Shown here in pieces: positions 6,629 to 16,494 of a stretch of DNA of 64,000 nt (position 1 is the stretch's first letter; every line of letters begins with the position of its first letter). A model generated the notes under the pieces. The model was not told the origin of the DNA. It ran no database searches and saw nothing but the letters and a program-made list of their open reading frames with translations. The position numbers and the translations under genes are program-made. The DNA is from a virus, in the UHGV virus genome UHGV-0272730; one strand, written 5' to 3'.

Positions 6629-8245
6629 TCAACGTCTAAGCCCCTCATATGGGTTTCCTCTCACTAAGTCTGTGTGAGCACCCATTGATGGCGGCTTGAA
6701 TAATTTAACTTCGTTAAGACTGTTGAAAGCATCACTGGTAGCATCCACTTGGTCATCTTTAGTTTTACCATCACCACAAAAGCCTTCAAGCTCTTGGAAG
6801 TAAGCTTCATTCCAACTACCTCTCAAGACTTTTACAAGTCCAGCTTCAGAAGCAGCAGAAAACCCCGCAAATCGGGTAACTTTATCTTTATTTGTTGGTT
6901 TAGCTCTTGCACGATAGCCTTTCTCGGCAAGTTTCCTGATGAGGGATGTCGCGTAGGATTTACCAGCAGCGCCTGGGTCTTGAGGGATAAAAATACCAGT
7001 TCGCTTACCGTCACTTTCAGCAGTCAAATTAATTTGTGTTTCGACTCCAGAGGGTCTATCTCTAAATCTTACTACATCAATGATATAATAGCAACCGTCT
7101 TTTTTAGATTTACCCATCTTAACACCTGCTGTCCAGTCTGGATTAGGGTTAATCTCAGATGGTAAAGTTGCTGCTAAGTCCCATGCTCTAACATCGAATA
7201 CATCTTCTGGGAGTGAATCAACAATCTCACACCATTGTCTTTGCCAATAGTTTGAACCTTCTGCACGAGCCTTCCAGTTACCGAAACGAAGTCTTGCAAC
7301 GTTTACAGGGGTGTTGTTTTCCAACTTACCACGGTACTTAGGCTCTAAGAAGTCAAGGATTGGGTTATCATCAATCGTACCAGAGATAAAGGTGTATGTT
7401 TGAGGAATCTCAAGAGGAAACATTTCAAGAATCTTGTCTCTCTCCCAATCAGAAACCATAACACCATCATTCATTACATACCAACGAATACGACCACACT
7501 TTTCAGGGTCTGGGTAACCTTCTTCATCTAAGAAGGGTTCTACCCAATCATAAATAAAGTGGTCTCTATCTGGGTTCATAGAAATCTTCATGTATGAGTC
7601 ACTTTCAGCACCAGAACGTAGACGAGTCTGTAGGTATGAAATCTGTGAAGCAGAGAAGTGTGTACCTTCGTCAAAGTAGATAGCTGAGTATTCAATACCC
7701 TGATGACCTTCAGCGTGCTTTTCAAGTTCTAGGTAGGTAAACTTGATAGTTGCCCCAGAAGGGAATGTGATAGTCATCTTCTGCTCATGAGGAACCCCAC
7801 CAAACTTACCAAATAGTTTCTTTGCAGCAGGCCATAAACCACCTTGTAACTGTGTTGTATTTTGACGGAAATATACAGCATTATAGTTAGGGTCTTCAAT
7901 AAACCTTAAAGAGTCCATTAATAATGCAGCAGTTTTACCAGCACCAGCAGCACCACCATAGAGAACCAAGTCAGCATTAGTATTTAAAAAGACCTCTTGA
8001 GAACCCGGCTGAGGGGCTACATAGTTCTTATCAGTCATCAATTTGAAGATAAGTCTAACTTGGTCTGGTGTGTATCTTAATAAAGTCAGAATTTGAGTTG
8101 GAAGGAATTTAGAGGGGTCTTTACCGTATGATTTGATAATTTCTTTTACTTCATCAGAAAGCCCCAACTCTCCAGCTAGGACTTTCCTAACATCTTCCAC
8201 TCGCTTCTGCTTAATAGCATTTAAGTCCATTAAGCACCTCCGCAA
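6629..8245 (-). CDS. terL: terminase large subunit
   Basis: 538 aa; N-terminal ATPase with Walker A-like VLYGGAAGAGKT and C-terminal nuclease-like half; directly precedes portal. Confidence 0.8.
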   Translation of the reverse strand: MRRCLMDLNAIKQKRVEDVRKVLAGELGLSDEVKEIIKSYGKDPSKFLPTQILTLLRYTPDQVRLIFKLMTDKNYVAPQPGSQEVFLNTNADLVLYGGAAGAGKTAALLMDSLRFIEDPNYNAVYFRQNTTQLQGGLWPAAKKLFGKFGGVPHEQKMTITFPSGATIKFTYLELEKHAEGHQGIEYSAIYFDEGTHFSASQISYLQTRLRSGAESDSYMKISMNPDRDHFIYDWVEPFLDEEGYPDPEKCGRIRWYVMNDGVMVSDWERDKILEMFPLEIPQTYTFISGTIDDNPILDFLEPKYRGKLENNTPVNVARLRFGNWKARAEGSNYWQRQWCEIVDSLPEDVFDVRAWDLAATLPSEINPNPDWTAGVKMGKSKKDGCYYIIDVVRFRDRPSGVETQINLTAESDGKRTGIFIPQDPGAAGKSYATSLIRKLAEKGYRARAKPTNKDKVTRFAGFSAASEAGLVKVLRGSWNEAYFQELEGFCGDGKTKDDQVDATSDAFNSLNEVKLFKPPSMGAHTDLVRGNPYEGLRR

Positions 8246-8251
8246 ATAGAA

Positions 8252-8452
8252 TTATTCAGAGTCTGTAGCAGTCTCTTCTTTCTTAACTTCGAACTTTGCA
8301 TCAACAGCATCAAGAAGTGCATCCATAGATGCTTCTTTAATATCAATACCTGTTGCTACAGATAGTCTGTCTGCAATTGCCATGATAGTATTCTGCATAA
8401 ACTCTAACTTCTTGTTAGCTTCATAAAGTTCTTTATAAACGTTCTCGCTCAT
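8252..8452 (-). CDS. hypothetical small protein upstream of terminase
   Basis: 66 aa ORF ending 7 nt before terL start; too small to assign as small terminase. Confidence 0.35.
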   Translation of the reverse strand: MSENVYKELYEANKKLEFMQNTIMAIADRLSVATGIDIKEASMDALLDAVDAKFEVKKEETATDSE

Positions 8453-8674
8453 TATGTTTTCTCCAAATAATTAATATTGTTTCCCCTTAAAAAAGACGGC
8501 ACAGAGACCGTCAAGGAGAAACCACAATGTACGTCAGAGACATACTGTATAAGCCTTCTTATAAAGTATAACTCTGTAAAAAAGCCCTGTCTAAAAATAC
8601 TCTTCGGTAGCGAAAGGAAGAATACTTATAGCAGGGCATTATTATTATTTTAATTGAGAGAGAGTAAAATAACT

Positions 8675-8750
8675 TGGAGAATCCGAAGGGACTCGAACCC
8701 TTATAAACCTGTTTTGCAGACAGGCACATAGCCATTTCTGTCACGGATTC
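8675..8750 (-). tRNA. tRNA-Cys (anticodon GCA)
   Basis: Cloverleaf parsed on reverse complement: acceptor GAATCCG/CGGATTC, anticodon arm CCTGT-CTGCAAA-ACAGG, T arm AAGGG-TTCGAGT-CCCTT, CCA encoded. Confidence 0.75.
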
Positions 8751-8754
8751 AAAT

Positions 8755-8847
8755 TGGAGGAAGATACCAGACTTGAACTGGTACACCGATTTCTCAGCTA
8801 CTGGCAGTTTAGCAAACTGCTCCCTTACCTTTTAGGGTTAATCTTCC
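8755..8847 (-). tRNA. tRNA-Ser (anticodon GCT), class II with long variable arm
   Basis: Acceptor GGAAGAT/ATCTTCC, anticodon arm GCAGT-TTGCTAA-ACTGC, about 21 nt variable arm, T arm ACCAG-TTCAAGT-CTGGT. Confidence 0.65.
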
Positions 8848-8848
8848 A

Positions 8849-9646
8849 TTATTTCTGTAATGCGTTCTTCATTTCTGGTGTTGCAATAGTGTCAATCACA
8901 CCAGTTTTACAAGCATCATCAAACCAGTCTGGTAAGATACCTGCTAAGAACCCATTGATATTCGTTTTAAGGTACTCTGCAATAAGAGCAGCTTCTTCTT
9001 CAATCATCTGCACAACTTCATCTGCATAAGCTGTAATTTTTGAAATACCTTCATTAATCTTACTAACAGCTTGCTCAGCTAAATCAGAAATAGTATCAAG
9101 ACCTTTGTCAATAGCATCTTGTAAGTCACTTAACACACCATTAACACTATCTAGTGCACTGTTAATCGTATCAATAGCTTTTTGACCATACTCTGTAGCA
9201 ACACCCATAATACCACTAAATGGTGTACAGCCAACTTGTTCACCTACTGCACCCATAACATTAGAGTAACCTTTTGCTACCTGCATACGTGATGAAAACT
9301 CATCAATGGACTTTTGACCATAGTCTGTTAAGGTCTTAGTAGTCGCTGTAGTGCTTGTAAGGCTTGTTGTAAAGCTGTTTAGAAGGACTGTTGTAAGTCC
9401 AGCAGCAACAAGTTTCTCCTTCATTGTAGGGTCTGTTACAGAGCTAATAGAACTTACAAGTGATGTAGAGGCAGCTACGGTTCCACCGAGAACTGCTGCA
9501 CCAGTAATAAGGGGATTGGAAAACCCTCTACCGGTTTTTAAGAGATTAAAAATCTCCTTACCTTGTTCTGTCATCTCTTTCATTAAGCACCTTTGAAATT
9601 GGTAGTCCAGTGGGATTTGAACCCTCTTCTCATGTTTTTCAGACAC
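8849..9646 (-). CDS. hypothetical protein embedded in tRNA array
   Basis: 265 aa ORF exactly filling the gap between two tRNAs; Ser/Thr/Ala-rich N-terminus and helical C-terminus. Confidence 0.45.
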   Translation of the reverse strand: MSEKHEKRVQIPLDYQFQRCLMKEMTEQGKEIFNLLKTGRGFSNPLITGAAVLGGTVAASTSLVSSISSVTDPTMKEKLVAAGLTTVLLNSFTTSLTSTTATTKTLTDYGQKSIDEFSSRMQVAKGYSNVMGAVGEQVGCTPFSGIMGVATEYGQKAIDTINSALDSVNGVLSDLQDAIDKGLDTISDLAEQAVSKINEGISKITAYADEVVQMIEEEAALIAEYLKTNINGFLAGILPDWFDDACKTGVIDTIATPEMKNALQK

Positions 9647-9676
9647 GCGCTTTAACCATATAAGCTACTTGGACTA
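9600..9676 (-). tRNA. tRNA-Phe (anticodon GAA), tentative
   Basis: Acceptor TAGTCCA/TGGACTA, anticodon arm CGTGT-CTGAAAA-ACATG, T loop TTCAAAT. Confidence 0.6.
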
Positions 9677-9681
9677 TAAAT

Positions 9682-9757
9682 TGGGGTGACCTACGGGATT
9701 TGAACCCGTATAGACCATGTTCACAGCATGGGTCATTACCATTTATGATAAGGCCAC
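9682..9757 (-). tRNA. tRNA-His (anticodon GTG)
   Basis: Anticodon arm CCATG-CTGTGAA-CATGG, T arm ACGGG-TTCAAAT-CCCGT, CCA encoded. Confidence 0.65.
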
Positions 9758-9788
9758 ATTTAAGGACTCTCGTAAGAATCCTTAGAAG

Positions 9789-9864
9789 TGGCAGCGGCAT
9801 AAGGATTTGAACCTTAATAGGACAGCTTCAGAGACTGTTGCATTGCCAGTTATGCTATACCGCT
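9789..9864 (-). tRNA. tRNA with anticodon CTG (Gln-type), tentative
   Basis: Acceptor AGCGGTA/TGCCGCT, anticodon arm ACAGT-CTCTGAA-GCTGT, T arm TAAGG-TTCAAAT-CCTTA, CCA encoded. Confidence 0.55.
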
Positions 9865-9869
9865 AAATT

Positions 9870-9948
9870 TGGTACTCCATATCGGATTCGAACCGATACA
9901 TAACACAGATTTTAAGTCTGGCCTCTCTGCCAATTGGAGTAATGGAGC
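9870..9948 (-). tRNA. tRNA with anticodon loop CTTAAAA (anticodon TAA, Leu-type) but short variable arm
   Basis: Acceptor GCTCCAT/ATGGAGT, T arm ATCGG-TTCGAAT-CCGAT; 79 nt, unusual for tRNA-Leu. Confidence 0.5.
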
Positions 9949-9950
9949 AT

Positions 9951-10026
9951 TGGCGGGGGATGTTGGAATTGAACCAACTTCTTCGATTTCAAAGACCGAG
10001 GTTTTAACCTTGTAAACTAATCCCCT
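9951..10026 (-). tRNA. tRNA-Gln (anticodon TTG), tentative
   Basis: Anticodon arm TCGGT-CTTTGAA-ATCGA, T arm GTTGG-TTCAATT-CCAAC, CCA encoded. Confidence 0.55.
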
Positions 10027-10034
10027 TTAAATCT

Positions 10035-10592
10035 TTACTTTCTCAGTGGATGAATAAAGAATGCCAACATAACTCTTTCCCTTGAGAATGCTCTTTCTTC
10101 TGGGACAACACTTTTTAGTTTCCATCCAATATAAATTCTCCAGTAAAACTGTTTACCAAAGACTTTAATTGATGGGATAAAGGCGAATAATCCCCAAGCA
10201 TTACTGTTCCACATTAGGAGGTAACCAGTCTGATTATCTTCAGGGTCAGAACTTACGTTGATATTACCTTTCCACTTAGTAACATCTTTTACATCTCTTC
10301 CTAATACATGGTAAGAGAAGTTATAAGCTTTGTTTCTCCAGAGCCATCCGACTCTTTGCATGTAGACGCCTAGTTTACCAATCCATCTAATATTAGCCCA
10401 TCTTTTAACGTGACCTTCATCACCATCAATTGGGTTGTCATATGTCTCCATCCATCTGAACCCGAAAGGTAAGTGTCCTTTCTTCTCACTGTAGAATGGA
10501 ACTACAAAAGGTGCTAAGATAACTGCTAAGATTGCTGCAAATGGCTCTAACAAAGCTAAGAAAATCCATGAAGCATACTTTAAGTATCTCAT
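10035..10592 (-). CDS. hypothetical membrane protein inside tRNA array
   Basis: 185 aa ORF with strongly hydrophobic N-terminus (WIFLALLEPFAAILAVILAPFVVPF) and W/R-rich remainder. Confidence 0.4.
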   Translation of the reverse strand: MRYLKYASWIFLALLEPFAAILAVILAPFVVPFYSEKKGHLPFGFRWMETYDNPIDGDEGHVKRWANIRWIGKLGVYMQRVGWLWRNKAYNFSYHVLGRDVKDVTKWKGNINVSSDPEDNQTGYLLMWNSNAWGLFAFIPSIKVFGKQFYWRIYIGWKLKSVVPEERAFSRERVMLAFFIHPLRK

Positions 10593-10831
10593 TGTCTAAT
10601 CCTCGTAAGGAGGTAAATGTTATTATTCGTTTCTAAACCTTCTGGTAAAACTGTCTCAAAAATAACACTCTTCAGATGTCTACCACCAAAACAATCACGT
10701 ATAAATCTTTCTACTCTAGCGGGGTCACATAAGTATCCCACTTTTAAGAAAATGTGGTGTTCAACACCAATGACCCTGACAAACTCAATACTCTCACAGT
10801 TTTCATGTTCAACTACTGTTAATGTTTGCAT
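10589..10831 (-). CDS. hypothetical protein
   Basis: 80 aa ORF overlapping downstream gene start by 4 nt. Confidence 0.35.
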   Translation of the reverse strand: MQTLTVVEHENCESIEFVRVIGVEHHIFLKVGYLCDPARVERFIRDCFGGRHLKSVIFETVLPEGLETNNNIYLLTRIRQ

Positions 10832-10848
10832 AGTATCACCTTTTTATC

Positions 10849-10924
10849 TGGCGCAGGATAAGGGATTCGAACCCCTATTAACAGCTTCGTAGACTGTTGC
10901 TCTTTCCATTTGAACTAATCCTGC
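10849..10924 (-). tRNA. tRNA-Arg (anticodon ACG)
   Basis: Acceptor GCAGGAT/ATCCTGC, D arm GTTC/GAGC, anticodon arm ACAGT-CTACGAA-GCTGT, T arm AGGGG-TTCGAAT-CCCTT, CCA encoded. Confidence 0.65.
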
Positions 10925-10929
10925 AAAAT

Positions 10930-11007
10930 TGGTGTTCCAAGACGGATTCGAACCGTCACTAATACAAGGTTTGAGCTTGCATCCTCTGCCAATTGGGATA
11001 CTGGAAC
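10930..11007 (-). tRNA. tRNA with anticodon loop CTCAAAC (anticodon CAA, Leu-type) but short variable arm
   Basis: Acceptor GTTCCAG/TTGGAAC, T arm GACGG-TTCGAAT-CCGTC; 78 nt. Confidence 0.5.
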
Positions 11008-11011
11008 ATGA

Positions 11012-11083
11012 TACTCACTAAAGGACTTGAACCTTTTTCTTCATCTTGTAAGGGTGATGTTTTACCATATAAACTAAGCGAGT
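11012..11083 (-). tRNA. tRNA-Val (anticodon TAC), tentative; CCA not encoded
   Basis: Acceptor pairs 7/7 with one G-U, anticodon arm TCACC-CTTACAA-GATGA, T arm AAAGG-TTCAAGT-CCTTT. Confidence 0.55.
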
Positions 11084-11179
11084 ATGAAAGAGGTCTGGAG
11101 TTGTGCCGCTAACTCAACTCCGTGGAATTTGTTACGGTCTTCAGTTGACTCAAAGCGGTCTTTCACTTGACCTCTGAAT

Positions 11180-11257
11180 TGGTGCTCCCACAAGGACTCG
11201 AACCCGCATCTCCATCCTTACAAGGGATGTGTAATAGCCAATTATACGAAAGCAGCA
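11180..11257 (-). tRNA. tRNA-like element with perfect Thr-type anticodon arm (TGT) but degenerate T and acceptor stems
   Basis: Anticodon arm CATCC-CTTGTAA-GGATG perfect; T stem GCGGG/CCTTG pairs poorly; 5' acceptor strand not complementary; abuts HNH gene stop at 11258. Confidence 0.3.
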
Positions 11258-11671
11258 TTAAACTTTTATGATACCAGCATGTACTTTTCTGTGACAGTTA
11301 GCGCACAAGACAATGCACTTTCTGATTTCATCTTTTAATCTTTTTGTGGAGTATGAATAAAGTGATGCAGGATTCAAATCTTTCTGGGAAGGGTCTGTAT
11401 GGTGTAAATCCAATGCAACTGGTTCTTTCTCACCACATATATGACATTTGCATAAAGCTTTGTACCTTCTAGCTAGAGTCTTGTTATACTCTCTCTTGAA
11501 GTTACGAGTGCTTTTAATAGCCTCTTTCCTTTTATCATTTGCTTGATAACTCTTTGCATCACGAAGTCTTGCACAGTCTTTGCATTGACTTTGAAGACCA
11601 TCTTTCTTGTTCTTATTCTTATGGAATAAGCTTTCATCTTTTGGTATTCTGCAAGTACTGCATATTTTCAT
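11258..11671 (-). CDS. HNH homing endonuclease
   Basis: 137 aa with Cys clusters and HNH core CHICGE...LDLHH...CANCH. Confidence 0.75.
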   Translation of the reverse strand: MKICSTCRIPKDESLFHKNKNKKDGLQSQCKDCARLRDAKSYQANDKRKEAIKSTRNFKREYNKTLARRYKALCKCHICGEKEPVALDLHHTDPSQKDLNPASLYSYSTKRLKDEIRKCIVLCANCHRKVHAGIIKV

Positions 11672-11685
11672 ATCACACCTTAATT

Positions 11686-11760
11686 TGGAGCATCCAGAGG
11701 GAATCGAACCCTCAACCTCAGTTTGGAAGACTGTAATTTTCCCGTTTAAACTATGGATGC
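11686..11760 (-). tRNA. tRNA-Gly (anticodon TCC)
   Basis: Acceptor TGGATGC/GCATCCA perfect, anticodon loop CTTCCAA, T arm GAGGG-TTCGATT-CCCTC, CCA encoded. Confidence 0.65.
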
Positions 11761-11766
11761 ACTAAT

Positions 11767-11842
11767 TGGTGGAGAAGCAGGGAATTGAACCCTGTACTTA
11801 AGTTTGCAAAACTTATGTTTTAACCATGTAAACTACATCCCC
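11767..11842 (-). tRNA. tRNA-Ala (anticodon TGC)
   Basis: Anticodon arm TAAGT-TTTGCAA-ACTTA perfect; G3-U70 wobble in acceptor stem (Ala identity element); T arm CAGGG-TTCAATT-CCCTG. Confidence 0.65.
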
Positions 11843-11848
11843 AATGTC

Positions 11849-11924
11849 TGGTACAGGTGGAGGGAATTGAACCCATCGTCTTACTGATTAAGAGTCAGCC
11901 GCATAACCATTTTGCTACACCTGC
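11849..11924 (-). tRNA. tRNA-Lys (anticodon CTT), tentative
   Basis: Anticodon arm GCTGA-CTCTTAA-TCAGT; close paralogue of tRNA at 13264-13339. Confidence 0.55.
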
Positions 11925-11931
11925 ATTAATT

Positions 11932-12009
11932 TGGTAGGAGACAAGGGATTCGAACCCTCAAACATCTCGTTCTAAGCGAGATAGGTTTACCAATTACCGT
12001 CAATCTCCC
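11932..12009 (-). tRNA. tRNA with anticodon loop CTTAGAA (anticodon TAG, Leu-type) but short variable arm
   Basis: Anticodon stem TCTCG/CGAGA perfect, T arm GAGGG-TTCGAAT-CCCTT; 78 nt. Confidence 0.5.
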
Positions 12010-12264
12010 ATTAAATCTTTTTAGAGAACTTCTAAGAACCTAAGCAACAAGGCTCCACAACAAGCTGTAATAACCTTAGAAGCCCTCTAAAAAGACCTAA
12101 ATAGGTCTTTGCATAGTCTTGTTTAATCCGGTGACTAGAACCTTTGGAGAGCTTGATATTATCTCTTCTCCGTGACACCTACTAGGTGCTTTGACAGTGT
12201 ACGACAATACACGAGGGATAAACCGACAATGCGAACAAGCATGGACGGAGTAAATCTTATTAGG
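12010..12264 (-). ncRNA. structured non-coding spacer in tRNA array (candidate stable RNA)
   Basis: 255 nt without convincing ORF; about 19 bp imperfect inverted repeat (12017-12036 vs 12074-12093) plus small hairpin AGACCTAAATAGGTCT. Confidence 0.3.
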
Positions 12265-12354
12265 CGGTAAGTAAAGGAGTCGAACCCTCACCGTATCTCT
12301 ACAGTGGCAACTGTTTTCAAGACAGTTTGGCTACCATTAGCCGCTACCTACCCC
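12265..12354 (-). tRNA. tRNA-Ser (anticodon TGA), class II
   Basis: Acceptor GGTAGGT/ACTTACC, anticodon arm ACTGT-CTTGAAA-ACAGT perfect, long variable arm, T loop TTCGACT. Confidence 0.6.
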
Positions 12355-12365
12355 TAATAAGACTT

Positions 12366-12448
12366 TGGCATGGGACGGAGGAGTTGAACCCCTTTGAAAC
12401 GGTTTTGGAGGCCGTTGCTCATGCCTTAGAGTCTTAACATCGTCCCAT
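12366..12448 (-). tRNA. tRNA-Trp (anticodon CCA), tentative, with enlarged D region
   Basis: Acceptor ATGGGAC/GTCCCAT perfect, anticodon arm ACGGC-CTCCAAA-ACCGT; 83 nt. Confidence 0.5.
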
Positions 12449-12460
12449 ATTATAATTCGA

Positions 12461-12489
12461 AGCTTACCCTGTTATCTCAACACTGTCAA
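12461..12489 (-). promoter_or_regulatory. candidate sigma70-like promoter upstream of tRNA at 12366-12448
   Basis: Minus strand TTGACA (12484-12489), 17 bp spacer, TAAGCT (12461-12466). Confidence 0.3.
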
Positions 12490-12590
12490 GCTTCTTCTCA
12501 GATTATTTACATGTTCTGGAAAACATGAGATACAGACCACCTCCTTACACGGAGACCCGATAAGGTCGTCTAAGCAATCTGCTAACTATT

Positions 12591-12667
12591 TGGTACACCC
12601 TACAGGATTCGAACCTGTAACTAACGATTTAGAAGACCGTTGCTCTATCCAATTGAACTAAGGGTGC
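12591..12667 (-). tRNA. tRNA-Arg (anticodon TCT)
   Basis: Acceptor GCACCCT/AGGGTGT, D arm GTTC/GAGC, anticodon arm ACGGT-CTTCTAA-ATCGT, T arm ACAGG-TTCGAAT-CCTGT, CCA encoded. Confidence 0.65.
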
Positions 12668-12987
12668 ATTAACATTTTAAAGGGTACTTATTGCATTTAA
12701 GCCAAGCCCCATAAGGGATACCCTTTAGAATGTTGCCCACCTTATTAATCATACCGTGGGCGAGTACGCCAAATTCTTTGATGAGGGATTGGAAGACCTC
12801 ACTGGTGTTTAGCCTATCAAGCTACTGCCAGAAAAACATTGTCGTTTGCATTTATTTTAAATTTTCAAAATAGACGCTACGCAACGAAAACTATTCAGAA
12901 TATGTACAACAAATTTCCCCACATTGTGTTACGTCTAACGCTCATGTATTGGTGTTTGAATTATACATATTATGAAGTGTTTTAGTT

Positions 12988-13016
12988 ACTATAAAGTAGT
13001 CACATCTCAATGTCAA
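12988..13016 (-). promoter_or_regulatory. candidate sigma70-like promoter within 360 nt tRNA spacer
   Basis: Minus strand TTGACA (13011-13016), 17 bp spacer, TATAGT (12988-12993). Confidence 0.4.
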
Positions 13017-13031
13017 CAACTTTATTGAAAT

Positions 13032-13107
13032 TGGTGCTGGTAGGTGGAATCGAACCACCGATGTTCCCTTATCAGGGGAGTGTTATAACCTTCTTAACTA
13101 TACCAGC
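13032..13107 (-). tRNA. tRNA-Ile (anticodon GAT)
   Basis: Acceptor GCTGGTA/TACCAGC, D arm GTTA/TAAC, anticodon loop CTGATAA, T arm GGTGG-TTCGATT-CCACC, CCA encoded. Confidence 0.65.
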
Positions 13108-13108
13108 T

Positions 13109-13185
13109 TGGAGGTTCAGATGGGAATCGAACCCACATTCATAGGGCTTATGAAACCCCTGCATTACCTTATCTGCGACTGAACC
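13109..13185 (-). tRNA. tRNA with anticodon CAT (Met, fMet or Ile2)
   Basis: Acceptor GGTTCAG/CTGAACC, anticodon arm GGGGT-TTCATAA-GCCCT, T loop TTCGATT, CCA encoded. Confidence 0.55.
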
Positions 13186-13263
13186 AGAATAAGTACCCTA
13201 GTTAGAGAAACTGTTGAGTGGGTGTTTCCAGCCGCGCAGGTGTTTCTCAGTTAAGGGTGAATT

Positions 13264-13339
13264 TGGTAGAAGTGGAGGGATTCGAACCCATCGCCTGTCA
13301 GATTAAAAGTCTGCCGCATCACCATTCTGCTACACTTCC
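13264..13339 (-). tRNA. tRNA-Lys (anticodon TTT)
   Basis: Acceptor GGAAGTG/CACTTCT, anticodon loop CTTTTAA, T loop TTCGAAT, CCA encoded. Confidence 0.6.
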
Positions 13340-13539
13340 ATTAAATTATCTTTGTAGATAAGCTACCCAGACTTGCTTAAGGTCTGTAGCGATGTGCCTT
13401 TTTGGGTTTAAATCTAGAATTTACCCTTTCACCCTTTGTGGTCGCATACTCACAGGTAAGCTTAATAACTTATCTACAAAGATAATTACCAGACCGTTGT
13501 TTATCATCTTAAGTGCTACCATTACACCAACTCGACATC

Positions 13540-13566
13540 TGCCGAGTGAAGGAATCGAACCTTCGC
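13540..13566 (-). other. tRNA-like 3' fragment (T arm plus acceptor strand only)
   Basis: GAAGG-TTCGATT-CCTTC T arm followed by ACTCGGC on the minus strand, but no complementary 5' acceptor strand or anticodon arm within about 100 nt. Confidence 0.3.
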
Positions 13567-13795
13567 CTTTTCTTTACCGAGAAATAGATTGTTTAAGTTT
13601 TGCTGTAAACGGTCTTCTGTAAATTTGTTGAGCCAGACCAAGTTTTAAATTTTTCAAAATTAAATTGGCTTGAAATTTTCATACGTTCTTGCTGTATTTG
13701 GTCTTCTGCTCCTTTAAAGGATACTCGTAAGAACCCTTTAAGGGAGGGGCTAAAATAGCCCTCTCAAACATCATTTTGAAATACTTATTATAATT

Positions 13796-13873
13796 TGGCG
13801 GTTACGAAGGGATTTGAACCCTCATCATCTCCCGTGACAGGGGAGTATTTTAACCAGATTAAACTACATAACC
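13796..13873 (-). tRNA. tRNA-Asp (anticodon GTC)
   Basis: Anticodon arm CTCCC-CTGTCAC-GGGAG perfect, T arm GAGGG-TTCAAAT-CCCTT, CCA encoded. Confidence 0.65.
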
Positions 13874-13879
13874 TTTATT

Positions 13880-13967
13880 TGGTGTGCCGTGTAGGAGTCG
13901 AACCTACCGAGTCTCAATGACAAGGGATTTACAGTCCCCACCGCTACCATCTACGGGATAACGACAC
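13880..13967 (-). tRNA. tRNA-Tyr (anticodon GTA), class II
   Basis: Acceptor GTGTCGT/ACGGCAC (one G-U), 3 bp D stem CCG/CGG, anticodon arm GGGGA-CTGTAAA-TCCCT, about 15 nt variable arm, T arm GTAGG-TTCGACT-CCTAC. Confidence 0.6.
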
Positions 13968-13976
13968 ATTTAAATT

Positions 13977-14053
13977 TGGCGGTTAGTCAGGGATTCGAAC
14001 CCTGTGCCATTCGCTTAACAGGCGACCGCACATACCTTATGTGCTTCCTAACC
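13977..14053 (-). tRNA. tRNA-Asn (anticodon GTT)
   Basis: D arm GCAC/GTGC, anticodon loop CTGTTAA, T arm CAGGG-TTCGAAT-CCCTG, CCA encoded. Confidence 0.6.
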
Positions 14054-14130
14054 TTAATACATTGCCAGACCGTGTTTTTTCTTTTATCCGCAAAAAGTAT
14101 TTTGTTGCTGAATACGGTCTTCTGCAAAAT

Positions 14131-14207
14131 TGGAGGCGGGTGCAGGAGTCGAACCTGCCGATACCATGCTAATGAGACATGTGAGACGCCCTTTCTCTAT
14201 ACCCGCA
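14131..14207 (-). tRNA. tRNA with anticodon CAT (Met-type; 1-72 mismatch hints at initiator)
   Basis: Anticodon arm CATGT-CTCATTA-GCATG, T arm GCAGG-TTCGACT-CCTGC, CCA encoded; first acceptor pair appears unpaired. Confidence 0.5.
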
Positions 14208-14298
14208 ATTCTTAATGACCAGACCAAATCTCTTCTTTGTCCGATTTACCTTCAGATGAATAAGATTAAGTTTGCTGTAATTGGTCTTCTGTCAAAAC

Positions 14299-14376
14299 TG
14301 GCGTTCCAGAAGGGATTTGAACCCTCAGATATCCACTTTGAAAGAGTGGTGACTTTACCATTTTGTCTACTGGAAC
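14299..14376 (-). tRNA. tRNA-Glu (anticodon TTC)
   Basis: Acceptor GTTCCAG/CTGGAAC perfect, anticodon arm CCACT-CTTTCAA-AGTGG perfect, CCA encoded. Confidence 0.65.
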
Positions 14377-14383
14377 ATTAATT

Positions 14384-14460
14384 TGGTCTCTGTTGGAGGA
14401 CTTGAACCTCCGGCCTTACCGCCCCAAACGGAACGCTCTACCAAGCTGAGCTAAACAGAG
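14384..14460 (-). tRNA. tRNA-Pro (anticodon TGG)
   Basis: Acceptor CTCTGTT/AACAGAG perfect, D arm GCTC/GAGC, anticodon loop TTTGGGG, T arm GGAGG-TTCAAGT-CCTCC, CCA encoded. Confidence 0.65.
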
Positions 14461-14486
14461 ATAAACTTTTCAAACTCTATGTAACC

Positions 14487-14516
14487 ACTTTAACATTATT
14501 TTTTAGTGGTTGTCAA
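14487..14516 (-). promoter_or_regulatory. candidate promoter at head of tRNA array
   Basis: Minus strand TTGACA (14511-14516), 18 bp spacer, TGTTAAAGT extended -10-like (14487-14495), about 25 nt upstream of first tRNA 5' end. Confidence 0.35.
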
Positions 14517-14582
14517 GAACTTTTTTAAAATATTTTTCAGTATCTTAGAAAAGCTCTCATTTCGTTTCTATGTAGAACATAT

Positions 14583-14622
14583 TAAAGGGTATTAAACACA
14601 TTGTCAATACCCTTTTTAAAAC
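14583..14622. terminator. hairpin with flanking T/A tracts (possible bidirectional terminator)
   Basis: GGGTATTAAACACATTGTCAATACCC followed by TTTTTTAAAA on plus; lies just downstream of minus gene ending at 14626. Confidence 0.4.
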
Positions 14623-14625
14623 TTT

Positions 14626-16041
14626 TTACCAGATGTAACGGTCAATCATTACTGCTTTGAGCATTACGCTGGTTGGGTCAAACTTCTCACCACCAAGCAG
14701 AGCTTTTAAAGTGGCTGGAGAGAACCCTGATACCATTGCTACACCGTTATCCTTAACAGATACTTCGCAAGTACCACTACGGTTTGCTAAGTACCAGAAT
14801 ACCAGTTGTGGCATTTCGTATCCAGCTTTTTTGTACTTACTACGAATTGCTTCAAAGTTTGTACGACCATTTGCACCGTCAACCTGATTGAACTCCATAT
14901 CAGAGAAGATGATAAGCTTACTTGGCATATCTTTCTGAGTCAAGTTGTTTCTCTTACCTGTCTCAAGAATGCGGTCAAAAGCTGCTTGTAAGTTAGTTGA
15001 ACCGTATTCAACATGACGCATTACCTGACGATGACGGTTTCGTAAATCACCACTCAGTTCAATGAAGTGAGGGTTTGTTGAATAAACCATCAACTCATTC
15101 TTAAAGCAACCTGTATTACGTTCTGCTACATACAATGCAAGTGAAACACCAATATCAAGAGCAGTAATTGAACCAAAATTCACCCAAGACATTGAACTTG
15201 AAACATCAGACATACATAGAATGTTTTCACCCTCTGCCATCCAGTTTGGTAGTGCTTTCCACTGCTCATTAGCAACATCTGCATTACCATACTTAACAGA
15301 TTTAATCACATCGTATGGGTAAACAGCACCAGCATTAATCTTAGTCTTACCCTTTGATAAGGACTCGATGTAAGCTTTGTAGCGCTCTCCATCTTTACGG
15401 TTAAACAGTTTTTGGTAACGTGCAGCAGCAAGTGAAGGAATCTTGCTGTAATCAATCTTACCAAACTCATTAGCAGAGATTTTTTGCTCAACTGTATCAG
15501 ATAGTGCAGACAACAGTGTGCGGTACTCTTTCTCACTCAAGTTGGCAAACTTGCAGAAACGTTTTACAAACTGTTTGTGGCGTGGTTTTACTCGTGGCAA
15601 CCACTTAGCTGCTAAACCTGCTGTTGCAGGGTCTAGTAATGCTGCTTCTAAATGTTTGAAGGCATCTGTCTCGAAACGAGTACCTACGAAGATTTTGAAG
15701 TCATCAAAACGACCAAGTTCTGCAATCTTATCCATAATGCGAAGAACCTGTGTAGGTTCTAAAACTTTATCTTCAATCGCTTGAAGCAAAACAGTTCTGA
15801 AGGCTTTACGCTCACCCATACCTTCTCGTACATCTCGCATATGCAGTAAAATACGAACTGCAACATCAACATCCTCACGCAAAGCTTTGTAGAACAAGTC
15901 TGGTAAGATTTCTACATTGCTACGGCTTGAACCAGCAGCTTTGTAAAAATCTACAAGAGCAGACATTGATGAAGTATGGTTTACAGCACCATTTTCAGTT
16001 CGACCTGCATGAAGGTGCGCATGTTTAAATAACTCGCTCAT
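14626..16041 (-). CDS. vWA-domain protein (MIDAS motif), possibly Ro60/TROVE-like architecture
   Basis: 471 aa; DVSSSMS matches the D-x-S-x-S MIDAS motif of vWA domains; helical N-terminal 250 aa; sits immediately upstream of the tRNA array. Confidence 0.5.
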   Translation of the reverse strand: MSELFKHAHLHAGRTENGAVNHTSSMSALVDFYKAAGSSRSNVEILPDLFYKALREDVDVAVRILLHMRDVREGMGERKAFRTVLLQAIEDKVLEPTQVLRIMDKIAELGRFDDFKIFVGTRFETDAFKHLEAALLDPATAGLAAKWLPRVKPRHKQFVKRFCKFANLSEKEYRTLLSALSDTVEQKISANEFGKIDYSKIPSLAAARYQKLFNRKDGERYKAYIESLSKGKTKINAGAVYPYDVIKSVKYGNADVANEQWKALPNWMAEGENILCMSDVSSSMSWVNFGSITALDIGVSLALYVAERNTGCFKNELMVYSTNPHFIELSGDLRNRHRQVMRHVEYGSTNLQAAFDRILETGKRNNLTQKDMPSKLIIFSDMEFNQVDGANGRTNFEAIRSKYKKAGYEMPQLVFWYLANRSGTCEVSVKDNGVAMVSGFSPATLKALLGGEKFDPTSVMLKAVMIDRYIW

Positions 16042-16122: not shown

Positions 16123-16494
16123 TTATTTTTTGAGAGTCGCTACAGCAGAGAACGTTGGTTTGTTATCTGTCTGTGGCTGACCACCATTATCAGGGGTCTT
16201 CTTAGTGTCTGCTGCAATTGCTTTCATCTCACCTGCTGAGTGAGTCATGATAGTTTTACCGACCTCAATCATACTCTTGATGGTTACGTCATCTGTGTTT
16301 AACCCGAACTCTGCAAGCTTAGCAGCATCCCTTGTAACAATCGCCTCAAACAGCTTTGCAGCAAACTCAGCAGAATTATCAATGGTCAGTTGAGCTTTTA
16401 CGAGTGAGCTTTTGTTACGAGAGCCTTTTGGTCTTCCAGATGGGTTTCCAGACTGGCCTTTTTTAAACTGGCCTTTGTTTGTTCTGTTTTTCAT
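16123..16494 (-). CDS. hypothetical protein with basic GNPSGRPKG N-terminus
   Basis: 123 aa ORF; KKGQSGNPSGRPKG motif then helical domain. Confidence 0.45.
   Translation of the reverse strand: MKNRTNKGQFKKGQSGNPSGRPKGSRNKSSLVKAQLTIDNSAEFAAKLFEAIVTRDAAKLAEFGLNTDDVTIKSMIEVGKTIMTHSAGEMKAIAADTKKTPDNGGQPQTDNKPTFSAVATLKK

What the first reader, a model, noticed from the sequence alone, without database searches (positions are those of the whole stretch)
12010..12264. Structured 255 nt spacer with a 19 bp inverted repeat inside the tRNA array
Arms TTTTTAGAGAACTTCTAAG (12017-12036) and CTTAGAAGCCCTCTAAAAA (12074-12093) can form a long stem with a 37 nt loop, followed by a second hairpin AGACCTAAATAGGTCT. 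T4 encodes stable non-tRNA RNAs within its tRNA region; this could be an analogous small RNA or a processing element.
Basis: inference. Interest (0 to 1): 0.45.

Follow-up and report, generated by a model that had tools for sequence, protein, structure and literature searches.

The report
Conserved non-tRNA RNA in phage tRNA operon
The 253-base gap between two tRNA genes of this Felix O1-like phage holds a conserved, folded, non-coding RNA of unknown function that no database lists, and it lies downstream of a Ro60-like RNA-binding protein gene.

Summary
The inverted repeat and the small hairpin are present, with coordinates off by one. The tRNAs are on the minus strand. On that strand the repeat forms an uninterrupted 27-bp helix with five G·U pairs, which are C·A mismatches on the plus strand.

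The window is a Felixounavirus. The spacer lies between tRNA-Ser(UGA) and tRNA-Leu(UAG). It matched in 254 phage records. In the 45 loci I examined (41 distinct sequences) it sits at this position, across Felixounavirus, Mooglevirus, Suspvirus and two deeper metagenomic lineages.

It forms seven hairpins. A roughly 105-nt core is as conserved as the neighbouring tRNAs. One hairpin varies widely in sequence but always folds. Several pairs in the long helix show compensatory changes. The region shows no coding signature, no Rfam match and no host match. Homing-endonuclease genes insert exactly at its borders in relatives.

I read it as a discrete non-coding RNA gene released by tRNA processing. 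This is a new RNA family of the kind known from the T4 and T5 tRNA clusters. No transcript has been shown.

The gene upstream of the array has a Ro60 fold. A different spacer (13491-13615) holds a well-supported YrlA-type permuted tRNA-like RNA, which is the better Y-RNA candidate. The finding's RNA may be a second partner (about 0.2).

The parts
12010..12262 (-). The whole element: a 253-nt non-tRNA RNA between tRNA-Ser(UGA) and tRNA-Leu(UAG). RNA position p corresponds to window coordinate 12263-p.
   Evidence: tRNA boundaries. The same spacer position and a length of 241-258 nt hold in 45 loci. The covariance model finds a single copy in the window at 289.9 bits.
12252..12258 (-). 5' motif AAGAUUU (RNA 5-11). 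It is invariant, lies in an A/U-rich single-stranded stretch, and is the presumed 5' processing region.
   Evidence: The motif is invariant in 41 of 41 sequences. It stays with the element when a 351-352-nt endonuclease gene separates it from tRNA-Ser in L009 and L010. RNase E cleavage here is an inference.
12223..12248 (-). P1: a hairpin that varies widely in sequence (RNA 15-40).
   Evidence: There are 23 distinct sequence versions, and each folds on its own into a two-part hairpin of -6.8 to -14.6 kcal/mol.
12197..12212 (-). P2 hairpin GUGUAU-UGUC-GUACAC (RNA 51-66).
   Evidence: RNAalifold predicts it. It is 100% paired in 41 sequences, with only one-sided changes.
12175..12189 (-). P3 hairpin GCACCU-AGU-AGGUGU (RNA 74-88), part of the nearly invariant core.
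12146..12171 (-). P4 hairpin GGAGA...UCUCC with an inner GAU/AUC helix (RNA 92-117). Its loop is almost invariant.
12114..12137 (-). P5 hairpin UAGUC-(14-nt loop ACCGGAUUAAACAA)-GACUA (RNA 126-149).
   Evidence: A U-A to C-G compensatory change occurs in L043 and L044. RNAalifold predicts this helix. The competing GGU/ACC helix of the single-sequence fold has no such support.
12085..12192 (-). The nearly invariant core spanning P3-P6 (RNA about 71-178). The identity figures were measured on RNA 71-175 (window 12088-12192).
   Evidence: It is 93-98% identical between the window and nine relatives: three other Felixounavirus or unclassified phages and six Mooglevirus or Suspvirus phages. This matches the tRNAs (91-100%), while P1 is 24-79%. 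The core alone is not unusually stable (z = -0.7).
12091..12110 (-). P6: AAAGACC-UAUUUA-GGUCUUU followed by a run of U (RNA 153-172). It resembles a terminator. Its 3' strand is shared with the base of P7.
   Evidence: I4; -8.1 kcal/mol, z = -3.5. Variants keep the pairing. The terminator scan did not call it.
12011..12100 (-). P7: the long hairpin, 27 uninterrupted base pairs (RNA 163-189 with 226-252) including 5 G·U, plus an apical domain.
   Evidence: In 41 sequences it is 98% paired, and 5 pairs show double changes (U-A to G-C, G-C to U-A, U-A to A-U and others).
12043..12050 (-). Invariant apical motif UUGUUGCU in the P7 loop (RNA 213-220).
   Evidence: It is invariant in 41 of 41 sequences, including L043 and L044, whose P7 stem sequence has been rewritten.
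14626..16041 (-). Context: a 471-aa gene with a Ro60 fold (Pfam DUF2828 + DUF7788), same strand, ending 2.4 kb upstream of the element.
   Evidence: Pfam hits. The AlphaFold2 model has pLDDT 89.3. The top 12 Foldseek hits in PDB are all Ro60 structures, E 8e-8 to 3e-6, TM 0.42-0.66, aligned over the full length.
13491..13615 (-). Context: a YrlA-type circularly permuted tRNA-like RNA in the Asp-Lys spacer. This is the better Y-RNA candidate for the Ro60-like protein.
   Evidence: Of 26 predicted pairs, 15 show compensatory double changes, and the RNA is also present in the P778-like lineage.

Best explanation
The spacer is a gene for a discrete, structured, non-coding RNA of about 250 nt. It is carried inside the tRNA operon of Felix O1-like phages and transcribed on the tRNA strand.

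Shown by these analyses:
- It forms seven hairpins, P1 to P7.
- A roughly 105-nt core (P3-P6) is held as constant as the tRNAs, in its loops as well as its stems.
- P1 changes sequence freely but always folds.
- P7 is a 27-bp helix maintained by compensatory and G·U-mediated changes that only make sense on the tRNA strand.
- The unit has fixed borders, marked by homing-endonuclease insertions in relatives.

Inferred from established tRNA processing:
- The RNA is co-transcribed with the tRNAs. A sigma-70-like promoter site lies at 13016-12988.
- RNase P cleavage at the 5' end of tRNA-Leu creates its 3' end.
- Endonucleolytic cleavage in the A/U-rich UAAUAAG/AUUU stretch after tRNA-Ser, probably by RNase E, creates its 5' end.
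- The released 3' end then folds into the base of P7, displacing P6, which would protect it from 3' exonucleases.
- The 27-bp helix is also long enough to be an RNase III substrate.

Best guess on function: the invariant core and the invariant UUGUUGCU loop are recognition surfaces for a protein or RNA partner. The RNA would then act in trans as a small ribonucleoprotein component. Its most plausible setting is the RNA-surveillance and tRNA-maintenance module encoded around it, namely the Ro60-fold protein and the YrlA-type RNA.
For: - Strand: all 26 tRNAs are on the minus strand. The two plus-strand mismatches are G·U on the minus strand, and the hairpin folds at -36.9 versus -23.3 kcal/mol.
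- Distribution: 254 phage records match. In the 45 examined loci the element lies in the Ser(tga)-Leu(tag) spacer, including L043 and L044, whose Ro-like protein is only 62-64% identical.
- Conservation pattern: core 93-98%, tRNAs 91-100%, P1 24-79%.
- Structure: 99% of cells are paired, 6 pairs have double changes, 0 of 500 shuffles reach this, and slid controls give 36-52%. P1 has 23 sequence versions that all form hairpins.
- Not coding: 24 of 29 variant codons are nonsynonymous, two are stop codons, and changes fall 14/11/10 across codon positions. There is no conserved start codon, and loop indels of 1-2 nt occur.
- Not a known RNA: no Rfam family reaches significance, even with lax filters.
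- Borders: a PD-(D/E)xK-like ORF is inserted between tRNA-Ser and AAGAUUU in L009 and L010. An HNH ORF is inserted just after GAUUUAAU in L002, and a second GAUUUAAU sits just before tRNA-Leu there.
- Context: the upstream gene has a Ro60 fold. DUF2828 genes lie near tRNA genes on the same strand in the Campylobacter, Listeria, Mycobacterium and Aeromonas phages sampled. Lolly9 has a YrlA hit (below the gathering score) and List-36 a ROOL hit.
Against: - No RNA-seq or Northern evidence was found for any Felixounavirus. A discrete stable transcript is therefore unproven.
- The core alone is not thermodynamically unusual (z = -0.7). P2-P4 never vary enough to test their pairing, so those helices rest on prediction.
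- Most covariation in P5 and the lower part of P7 comes from two related sequences (L043, L044), which amounts to few independent events.
- The element is absent, by nhmmer and by covariance model, from the P778-like lineage. That lineage keeps the Ro60-like gene and the YrlA-type RNA. The element is therefore not an obligatory partner of that pair.
- PhageMaP reports that most Bas63 tRNA-region genes are dispensable in the laboratory (PMC11482910).
Confidence: 0.55

Rival explanations
1. The element is purely cis-acting. P7 would be an RNase III cleavage site, or a folding insulator, that separates tRNA sub-clusters. P6 with its U-run would be a weak terminator or attenuator that sets the dose of the downstream tRNAs. 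The excised RNA would have no function of its own.
For: - P7 is a 27-bp uninterrupted duplex, longer than the roughly two helical turns RNase III needs (the RNase III requirement is from general knowledge).
- A second long perfect hairpin (18-24 bp) with a similar ...ACAAAGAUAAUUUAAU tail lies directly before tRNA-Lys in the Asp-Lys spacer.
- P6 is followed by UUUUU.
- From memory, not checked here: Pragai and Apirion (1981) reported that RNase III takes part in T4 tRNA-cluster processing.
Against: - This does not explain why about 105 nt upstream of the hairpins, loops included, are as invariant as the tRNAs.
- It does not explain why the apical UUGUUGCU is invariant while the P7 stem is rewritten.
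- The terminator scan does not call P6.
- Most tRNAs in the array are separated by 6-8 nt with no such element.
Confidence: 0.2
2. The element is a second Y RNA, analogous to YrlB, bound by the phage Ro60-fold protein alongside the YrlA-type RNA at 13491-13615.
For: - It is on the same strand and 2.4 kb from the Ro60-fold gene. Chen et al. 2014 found YrlA RNAs within 4 kb on the same strand (PMC4201824).
- Ro60 proteins usually have several Y RNAs: YrlA/YrlB, Yrn1/Yrn2, and phiLo Yrl1/Yrl2.
- It has a long stem with a conserved apical module.
- The P6 helix AAGACC/GGUCU has the same sequence as the closing stem of the YrlA-type RNA (AAGACCGU/ACGGUCU).
- Many P1 loops carry UCG(G/A)A, which resembles the CGAA motif.
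- The PhageMaP authors speculated that Y RNAs hide in this tRNA array.
Against: - The Rfam YrlA and Y_RNA models do not match, even with lax filters.
- The GNCGAAN0-1G motif is not conserved and is absent from several P1 versions, including the window's.
- The long stem is a local hairpin, not a pairing of the 5' and 3' ends. The predicted terminal AGAUUU/AGAUUU pairing gains mismatches in variants.
- The P778-like lineage keeps the Ro60-like gene and the YrlA-type RNA but lacks this element.
- The shared 6-bp helix could be chance (roughly 6% for one hexamer in 253 nt).
Confidence: 0.2
3. The region is a small protein-coding gene of 30-55 aa, as some GenBank records annotate.
For: One sense frame stays open through the core in all homologues (...KAPSRCHGEEIISSSPKVLVTGLNKTMQR...). 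Several records annotate hypothetical proteins here, for example JLBYU28_127 and the ESh22 PHANOTATE calls.
Against: - There is no conserved start codon or ribosome-binding site. The window's only in-frame start lies inside tRNA-Ser.
- 24 of 29 variant codons are nonsynonymous, 2 are stop codons, and the third position shows no excess.
- The other annotated frame is broken by 1-2-nt indels and stop codons.
- The open frame follows trivially from the near-invariance of the sequence.
Confidence: 0.04
4. The region is a decayed tRNA gene, a neutral spacer, or a DNA-level element such as a cruciform, a recombination site or an endonuclease target.
For: The array contains tRNA-derived relics and tRNA-like elements elsewhere (12365-12446 and 13491-13615). 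Homing endonuclease genes cluster nearby.
Against: - The tRNA covariance model does not hit the spacer at E <= 1.
- Conservation equals that of functional tRNAs.
- G·U pairs and G·U-mediated substitutions are strand-specific, which indicates selection on RNA rather than on duplex DNA.
- 105 invariant nt is far longer than an endonuclease target, and the endonuclease genes insert at the borders, not inside.
Confidence: 0.03

Closest known systems
Stable non-tRNA RNAs of phage tRNA clusters (T4 species 1/rnaC and species 2/rnaD; T5 stable RNAs). These are cited from general knowledge.
   Same: It is a non-tRNA RNA lying between tRNA genes on the tRNA strand, presumably cut out by the tRNA-processing enzymes. 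It is conserved within a phage group, and its function is unknown.
   Different: There is no detectable sequence relationship: blastn over 50,697 phage records finds essentially only Ounavirinae. It is larger (about 250 nt against about 120-140 nt). Its existence as a stable species has not been shown.
Bacterial and phage Y RNAs (YrlA RF02553, YrlB, phiLo Yrl1/2)
   Same: It is encoded on the same strand within 4 kb of a Ro60-fold gene. It has a long helix and conserved loops. Several Y RNAs per Ro60 is the norm.
   Different: No covariance-model match, no conserved GNCGAA motif, no tRNA-like domain, and a helix that is a local hairpin. A true YrlA-architecture RNA lies elsewhere in the same array.
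Large ornate phage RNAs found near tRNA genes (ROOL RF03087, GOLLD)
   Same: It is a structured non-coding RNA of unknown function embedded in a phage tRNA array. ROOL sits in the tRNA array next to the DUF2828 gene of Listeria phage List-36 (91.5 bits).
   Different: No model match in the window. It is half the size or less, and its architecture is a string of local hairpins rather than a large multi-domain fold.
RNase III processing hairpins (phage T7 early-region sites, rRNA operon stems)
   Same: It contains a long, nearly perfect RNA duplex between functional RNAs in a polycistronic transcript. Mooglevirus versions have a single internal U·C mismatch, as many T7 sites have internal loops.
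   Different: Cleavage is untested. The element carries a large conserved core that a cleavage site does not need.

Membership tests
YrlA / Y RNA | Match to the Rfam covariance models (YrlA RF02553, Y_RNA RF00019) | tested here: not met
   There is no hit at E <= 1 in 8000-15500 and none at E <= 10 on the spacer alone with lax filters. As a positive control, the same library finds YrlA next to the DUF2828 gene of phage Lolly9 (37.7 bits, E 8e-5, below the family's gathering score of 69).
YrlA / Y RNA | Encoded near (<4 kb) a Ro60 gene and on the same strand | tested here: met
   The Ro60-fold ORF at 14626-16041(-) ends 2,364 nt upstream of the element. The criterion is from PMC4201824.
YrlA / Y RNA | GNCGAAN0-1G (or GGUCCGA) Ro-binding motif near the 5' end, within a stem formed by the 5' and 3' ends | tested here: not met
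   P1 loops often contain UCG(G/A)A, but the motif is not conserved; it is absent in the L035, L030 and L006 types, and the window has UUCGCA. The predicted terminal pairing AGAUUU/AGAUUU is weak and gains an A·C mismatch in variants.
YrlA / Y RNA | tRNA-like domain (T arm, acceptor-like stem-loop, D arm) | tested here: not met
   There is no tRNA model hit in the spacer. GGUUCUAGUC does not form a T arm, and it mutates to GGUACUAGCC.
YrlA / Y RNA | Bound by the Ro60 protein | not testable with these tools
   This needs RIP, CLIP or a gel shift.
Phage tRNA-cluster stable RNA (T4 species 1/2 type) | Lies inside the tRNA transcription unit on the tRNA strand and is bounded by tRNA processing sites | tested here: met
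   tRNA-Ser lies immediately 5' and tRNA-Leu immediately 3' on the same strand. The scan did not call a terminator between them.
Phage tRNA-cluster stable RNA (T4 species 1/2 type) | Accumulates as a discrete stable RNA in infected cells | not testable with these tools
   No transcript data were found.
Phage tRNA-cluster stable RNA (T4 species 1/2 type) | Sequence homology to T4 or T5 RNAs | tested here: not met
   Sensitive blastn over all phage records returns essentially only Ounavirinae-type phages.
tRNA / tRNA pseudogene | Cloverleaf detectable by ARAGORN or the Rfam tRNA model | tested here: not met
Intrinsic terminator (P6) | G+C-rich stem of at least 5 bp followed directly by a U-run | tested here: inconclusive
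   P6 has 7 bp but only 3 G-C pairs. Its U-run is partly inside the stem and also forms the P7 5' strand. The consensus scan does not call it, and its energy is -8.1 kcal/mol.
RNase III site (P7) | About 20 bp or more of continuous double-stranded RNA | tested here: met
   The window has 27 bp, and the helix is 98% paired across 41 sequences. Cleavage itself cannot be tested here.
ROOL / GOLLD | Match to the Rfam model | tested here: not met
Small protein gene | Conserved start codon, intact frame and an excess of synonymous changes | tested here: not met

The most novel reading that the evidence does not exclude
The element is the second RNA subunit of a phage Ro60 particle encoded inside a tRNA operon. 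In this reading the DUF2828-type Ro60 protein binds both the YrlA-type permuted tRNA-like RNA (13491-13615) and this 250-nt RNA. Binding would go through the shared AAGACC/GGUCU helix. The invariant core would tether a host nuclease or a defence factor, which would explain why the Ro60-like gene counters a host defence system in the PhageMaP screen.
Probability: 0.2. Interest if true: 0.75.

Novelty: new member of a known kind. Interest (0 to 1): 0.5.

Why it matters
Felix O1-like phages are widely used for Salmonella and E. coli typing, diagnostics and therapy. Even so, their tRNA region is annotated only as tRNAs plus scattered hypothetical ORFs.

This analysis indicates that at least one spacer is an unrecognised RNA gene, with tRNA-level conservation and covariation-supported structure. 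It also shows that this gene lies in an operon headed by a Ro60-fold protein and containing a YrlA-architecture RNA.

That gives concrete candidates, with coordinates, for the Y RNAs that the PhageMaP authors could only guess at. It also makes the function of phage Ro60 particles testable in a tractable E. coli phage (Bas63), including their reported anti-defence role.

Finally, it adds a case to the long-unexplained class of non-tRNA RNAs in phage tRNA clusters. It also warns against annotating the PHANOTATE-style small ORFs in this spacer.

Tried and rejected
- Rfam, in both evalue and lax modes on the spacer and the whole array, gave only tRNAs and chance hairpin or miRNA hits (MIR473, 29.9 bits).
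- A single-sequence AlphaFold model of the upstream ORF was unusable (pLDDT 44.7). It was redone with a 40-sequence alignment.
- Sequence searches of PDB gave only a non-significant Ro60 hit (E 0.95).
- nhmmer and a 255-position covariance model found no copy of the element in P778-like phages or in Campylobacter, Listeria, Aeromonas or Mycobacterium phages that carry DUF2828 genes.
- No similarity was found in 5,426 E. coli genomes.
- A search of the 64-kb window for targets complementary to the RNA gave only chance 11-mers. The one 15-mer is a coding 'Lys-Ile-stop' context before a terminator.
- The motif AAGATTTAA is not enriched or specific.
- A long-range pairing between GGUUUAUCC and GGAUUAAAC, seen in the single-sequence fold, is rejected. 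L044 breaks two of its pairs without compensation.
- A pseudoknot between the P5 loop AACAAG and the P7 loop CUUGUU is rejected. C-to-G changes in the P5 loop are not compensated.
- Readings as a CRISPR-repeat mimic or an anticodon-stem-loop decoy were considered by eye and dropped for lack of any match.
- The PhageMaP supplements are not held, so no intergenic fitness data could be read.
- Literature searches found no Felixounavirus transcriptome.

Full report
**What is there**

The window is a Felix O1-like phage. A 1.1-kb query around the finding matches Felixounavirus genomes at 90-99% identity. ARAGORN finds 26 tRNA genes, all on the minus strand, between 8675 and 14460. The finding is the 253-nt gap (12010-12262) between tRNA-Ser(UGA) at 12263-12352 and tRNA-Leu(UAG) at 11932-12009.

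On that strand the two A·C mismatches of the 19-bp repeat become G·U pairs. The helix then extends to 27 uninterrupted base pairs (RNA positions 163-189 with 226-252, where position p is window coordinate 12263-p).

The hairpin folds at -36.9 kcal/mol (z = -6.6) on the minus strand, against -23.3 kcal/mol on the plus strand. The whole spacer gives z = -3.3, with 0 of 200 shuffles as good.

**Conservation**

Sensitive blastn with the spacer alone finds 254 phage records, 253 of them covering at least 80% of it. They are almost all Escherichia, Salmonella, Shigella and Citrobacter phages of Felixounavirus, Mooglevirus and Suspvirus.

I collected 45 copies, 41 of them distinct:
- 14 GenBank loci;
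- 27 IMG/VR loci found with an invariant 24-mer;
- three contigs reached through the neighbouring protein;
- the window itself.

In every one the element lies in the Ser(UGA)-Leu(UAG) spacer and is 241-258 nt long.

Two contigs, L043 and L044, have a neighbouring Ro-like protein only 62-64% identical to the window's. They carry clearly diverged copies (173-186 bits against 233-284 for the rest).

The next lineage out is the Yersinia phage P778 type, with a Ro-like protein 52-56% identical. It has the same gene order but no copy, by nhmmer or by a covariance model.

**Pattern of constraint**

I compared the window with nine relatives: three Felixounavirus or unclassified phages and six Mooglevirus or Suspvirus phages. 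A 105-nt core (RNA 71-175) is 93-98% identical, which matches the neighbouring tRNAs (91-100%). The 5' 70 nt are 24-79% identical, and only about 46-49% of the 3' hairpin still aligns in the more distant relatives.

The core is invariant in its loops as well as its stems. On its own it is not unusually stable (z = -0.7). The constraint is therefore on sequence and not only on fold stability, as expected for a surface recognised by a protein or another RNA.

**Structure**

RNAalifold and inspection give seven local hairpins (parts list).

- **P1** exists in 23 different sequence versions, and each folds on its own into a two-part hairpin.
- **P5** (UAGUC/GACUA) shows a U-A to C-G compensatory change in L043 and L044.
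- **P7** shows double changes at five pairs: U-A to G-C, G-C to U-A, U-A to A-U, and others. It also shows many G·U to A-U or G-C steps.

On the 41-sequence alignment the specified structure is 99% paired, with six pairs carrying double changes. None of 500 shuffles reaches any measure, and sliding the partners by 1-3 columns drops pairing to 36-52%.

Three caveats apply. P2-P4 never vary, so they are predicted helices only. Several of the double changes come from the two related contigs. The alignment is of related sequences.

P6 (AAAGACC-UAUUUA-GGUCUUU, then a run of U) and the lowest 7-10 pairs of P7 use the same nucleotides, so they are alternative structures. One-sided variants at positions 247 and 248 keep the extended P7 paired. 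An 8-nt motif, UUGUUGCU, in the apical part of P7 is invariant even where the stem below it has been rewritten.

**It is not coding, not a tRNA and not a known RNA**

One sense frame stays open through the core, but this follows from the near-invariance of the sequence. Of 29 distinct variant codons, 24 are nonsynonymous and two are stops. The changes fall 14/11/10 over the three codon positions. There is no conserved start codon, and the window's only in-frame start lies inside tRNA-Ser.

The other frame, which some GenBank records annotate, is broken by 1-2-nt indels and stops. Rfam gives nothing beyond chance hairpin hits, even with lax filters on the spacer alone. There is no match in 5,426 E. 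coli genomes.

**Natural insertions mark the borders**

In NJ12 and Tribble (L009, L010) a 351-352-nt segment sits between tRNA-Ser and the invariant AAGAUUU. It encodes a protein that looks like a PD-(D/E)xK endonuclease; I judged this from its sequence motifs and did not scan it against a domain library.

In EcSzw-2 (L002) an HNH endonuclease gene sits directly after the element's last bases, GAUUUAAU. A second GAUUUAAU then sits immediately before tRNA-Leu. Mobile genes therefore land at the edges and leave the unit whole.

**Context**

The gene just upstream of the array (14626-16041, same strand) matches Pfam DUF2828 and DUF7788. With a 40-sequence alignment AlphaFold2 gives pLDDT 89.3. 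The twelve best Foldseek hits in PDB are all Ro60 proteins: frog, human, Deinococcus Rsr and Thermus phage phiLo. They have E 8e-8 to 3e-6 and TM 0.42-0.66 over the full length.

A PhageMaP preprint reports the same resemblance for gp130 of the Felixounavirus Bas63. The authors link gp130 to countering the ppl defence system, and they guess that some 'tRNA genes' downstream are Y RNAs (PMC11482910).

DUF2828 genes occur in 710 phage records. In the four distant examples I opened they lie near tRNA genes on the same strand:
- Lolly9 has a YrlA hit 140 nt downstream (37.7 bits, below the family's gathering score of 69);
- List-36 has a ROOL RNA in the adjacent tRNA array and RtcB downstream.

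**A better Y-RNA candidate elsewhere in the array**

The 456-nt Asp-Lys spacer (z = -4.6) contains, in this order:
- a small hairpin;
- a canonical T arm (GAAGG-UUCGAUU-CCUUC; local tRNA-model hit);
- a 7-bp acceptor-like stem closed by a tetraloop;
- U-G;
- a D arm (GUGU-AAUGGUA-GCAC).

A long stem encloses all of this (13491-13615). This is the circularly permuted tRNA-like layout that defines YrlA (PMC4201824), although the Rfam YrlA model does not hit it.

The RNA is conserved in Felixounavirus, Mooglevirus and Suspvirus, and also in three P778-like contigs. RNAalifold recovers the five helices with no prior input, and 15 of 26 pairs carry compensatory double changes. It tracks the Ro60-like gene more widely than the finding's element does.

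**Interpretation**

The comparative evidence supports a discrete non-coding RNA gene on the tRNA strand. How it matures is inferred from ordinary tRNA processing:
- RNase P cleavage at tRNA-Leu would make its 3' end.
- A cut in the A/U-rich UAAUAAG/AUUU stretch after tRNA-Ser would make its 5' end.
- The freed 3' end could then zip into the base of P7 and be protected.
- The 27-bp duplex could also be an RNase III site.

What the RNA does is not shown. The invariant loops point to a trans-acting partner. I place about 0.55 on 'discrete functional ncRNA'. Within that, about 0.2 goes to it being a second Y RNA for the Ro60-like protein. The points against the Y-RNA reading are:
- no covariance-model match;
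- no conserved CGAA motif;
- a helix that is a local hairpin;
- absence from the P778-like lineage.

A purely cis-acting role in processing or termination (0.2) does not explain the core. Coding and relic explanations are unlikely.

**Novelty and score**

This is a new RNA family with no Rfam model and no annotation in the fetched records. It belongs to a known kind: non-tRNA RNAs embedded in phage tRNA clusters, as in T4 and T5, and ROOL or GOLLD near phage tRNAs. Interest is moderate (0.5). The link to a phage Ro60 module raises it, and the lack of any transcript or functional evidence holds it back.

Noticed in passing
window 13491-13615 (minus strand), in the tRNA-Asp/tRNA-Lys spacer 13340-13795: A circularly permuted tRNA-like RNA with YrlA architecture: small hairpin, T arm GAAGG-UUCGAUU-CCUUC, 7-bp acceptor-like stem-loop, U-G, D arm GUGU-AAUGGUA-GCAC, all closed by the stem AGACCG.../...CGGUCU. 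It is conserved in Felixounavirus, Mooglevirus, Suspvirus and P778-like contigs. 15 of 26 predicted pairs show compensatory changes. The Rfam YrlA model does not detect it. It is probably the Y RNA of the adjacent Ro60-fold protein. I saw no annotation of it in the records fetched.
   Followed up: yes
window 14626-16041 (minus strand): A 471-aa DUF2828/DUF7788 protein with a full-length Ro60 (TROVE + vWA) fold. The top 12 PDB matches are all Ro60. It has a DxSxS MIDAS-like motif (SDVSSSM). Homologues occur in 710 phage records. In the four distant examples opened, the gene lies near tRNA genes on the same strand.
   Followed up: yes
window 13622-13710 (minus strand) and matching second hits in L035, L040, L042, L033, L034: The 5' part of the YrlA-type RNA (CAGAAGACC-NNN-UACAGCAA) occurs twice in the Asp-Lys spacer. 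nhmmer finds a second partial copy about 450-650 nt upstream in several relatives. This may be a tandem second Y-like RNA.
   Followed up: no
window 12365-12446 (minus strand), in the tRNA-Arg/tRNA-Ser spacer: A tRNA-like sequence that ARAGORN does not call. It has an 8-bp acceptor stem (AUGGGACG/CGUCCCAU), a T loop UUCAACU, an encoded G-CCA end, and a 9-nt 'anticodon' loop CCUCCAAAA. Only a weak tRNA-Sec model hit was obtained (23 bits). The spacer holding it is 89-94% conserved in Mooglevirus, Suspvirus and two unclassified contigs, and 71-78% in L043/L044.
   Followed up: partly
window 12252-12264 and 12353-12365: The sequences flanking tRNA-Ser(UGA) are complementary (AAGUCUUAUUAGG ... CCUAAUAAGAUUU; 13 nt, 92%). 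In the precursor the acceptor stem could therefore be extended by about 11-13 bp, which would involve the first bases of the finding's RNA (I2).
   Followed up: no
window 13340-13490 (minus strand): A second long, nearly perfect hairpin (18-24 bp) encloses a branched domain and ends in ...CUACAAAGAUAAUUUAAU directly before tRNA-Lys. This is the same design as P7 before tRNA-Leu.
   Followed up: partly
window 13016-12988, 14607-14579 and 14516-14487 (minus strand): Strong sigma-70-like promoter matches: TTGACA-17-TATAGT (11 of 12) inside the Ile-Arg spacer, and two TTGACA sites just upstream of the first tRNA. They suggest at least two transcription units in the array.
   Followed up: no
L002 821-1273; L009 and L010, between tRNA-Ser and the element: Homing-endonuclease-type genes are inserted exactly at the element's borders in relatives. 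These are an HNH gene in EcSzw-2 and a roughly 113-aa ORF in NJ12 and Tribble that looks PD-(D/E)xK-like by motif (not domain-scanned). NJ12 and Tribble also carry a different tRNA-Ser allele that ends in an encoded CCA.
   Followed up: partly
L053 3426-3977 (Listeria phage List-36) and L050 6560-6631 (Mycobacterium phage Lolly9): A ROOL RNA (91.5 bits, just under the gathering score) lies in the tRNA array next to the List-36 DUF2828 gene, with RtcB and RNA ligase genes downstream. A YrlA hit (37.7 bits, E 8e-5, below the gathering score of 69) lies 140 nt downstream of the Lolly9 DUF2828 'Ro-like' gene.
   Followed up: partly
window 12817-13090 (minus strand): A weak match to the permuted-tmRNA model (24.5 bits, E 0.02-0.06) and a tmRNA fragment hit at 12797-12858, both in the Ile-Arg spacer (364 nt, z about -4.8 by mononucleotide shuffles). 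This is probably chance, but the spacer is structured.
   Followed up: no
window 16123-16494 (minus strand) and loci L043-L049: A DUF5681 gene always lies immediately upstream of the Ro60-like gene. The order DUF5681, Ro60-like, tRNA array, DUF7217, terminase is conserved out to the P778-like lineage.
   Followed up: no
L051 9184-9305 (Aeromonas phage Aeh1): An annotated 122-nt 'tRNA-Val' lies 2.8 kb downstream of the Aeh1 DUF2828 gene on the same strand. The tRNA model spans it with a large insertion (53 bits). It may be an intron-containing tRNA or a tRNA-like RNA.
   Followed up: no
one search hit list: One record labelled Campylobacter and one labelled Staphylococcus carry the element. These are probably mislabelled or contaminated records. 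I did not open them.
   Followed up: no
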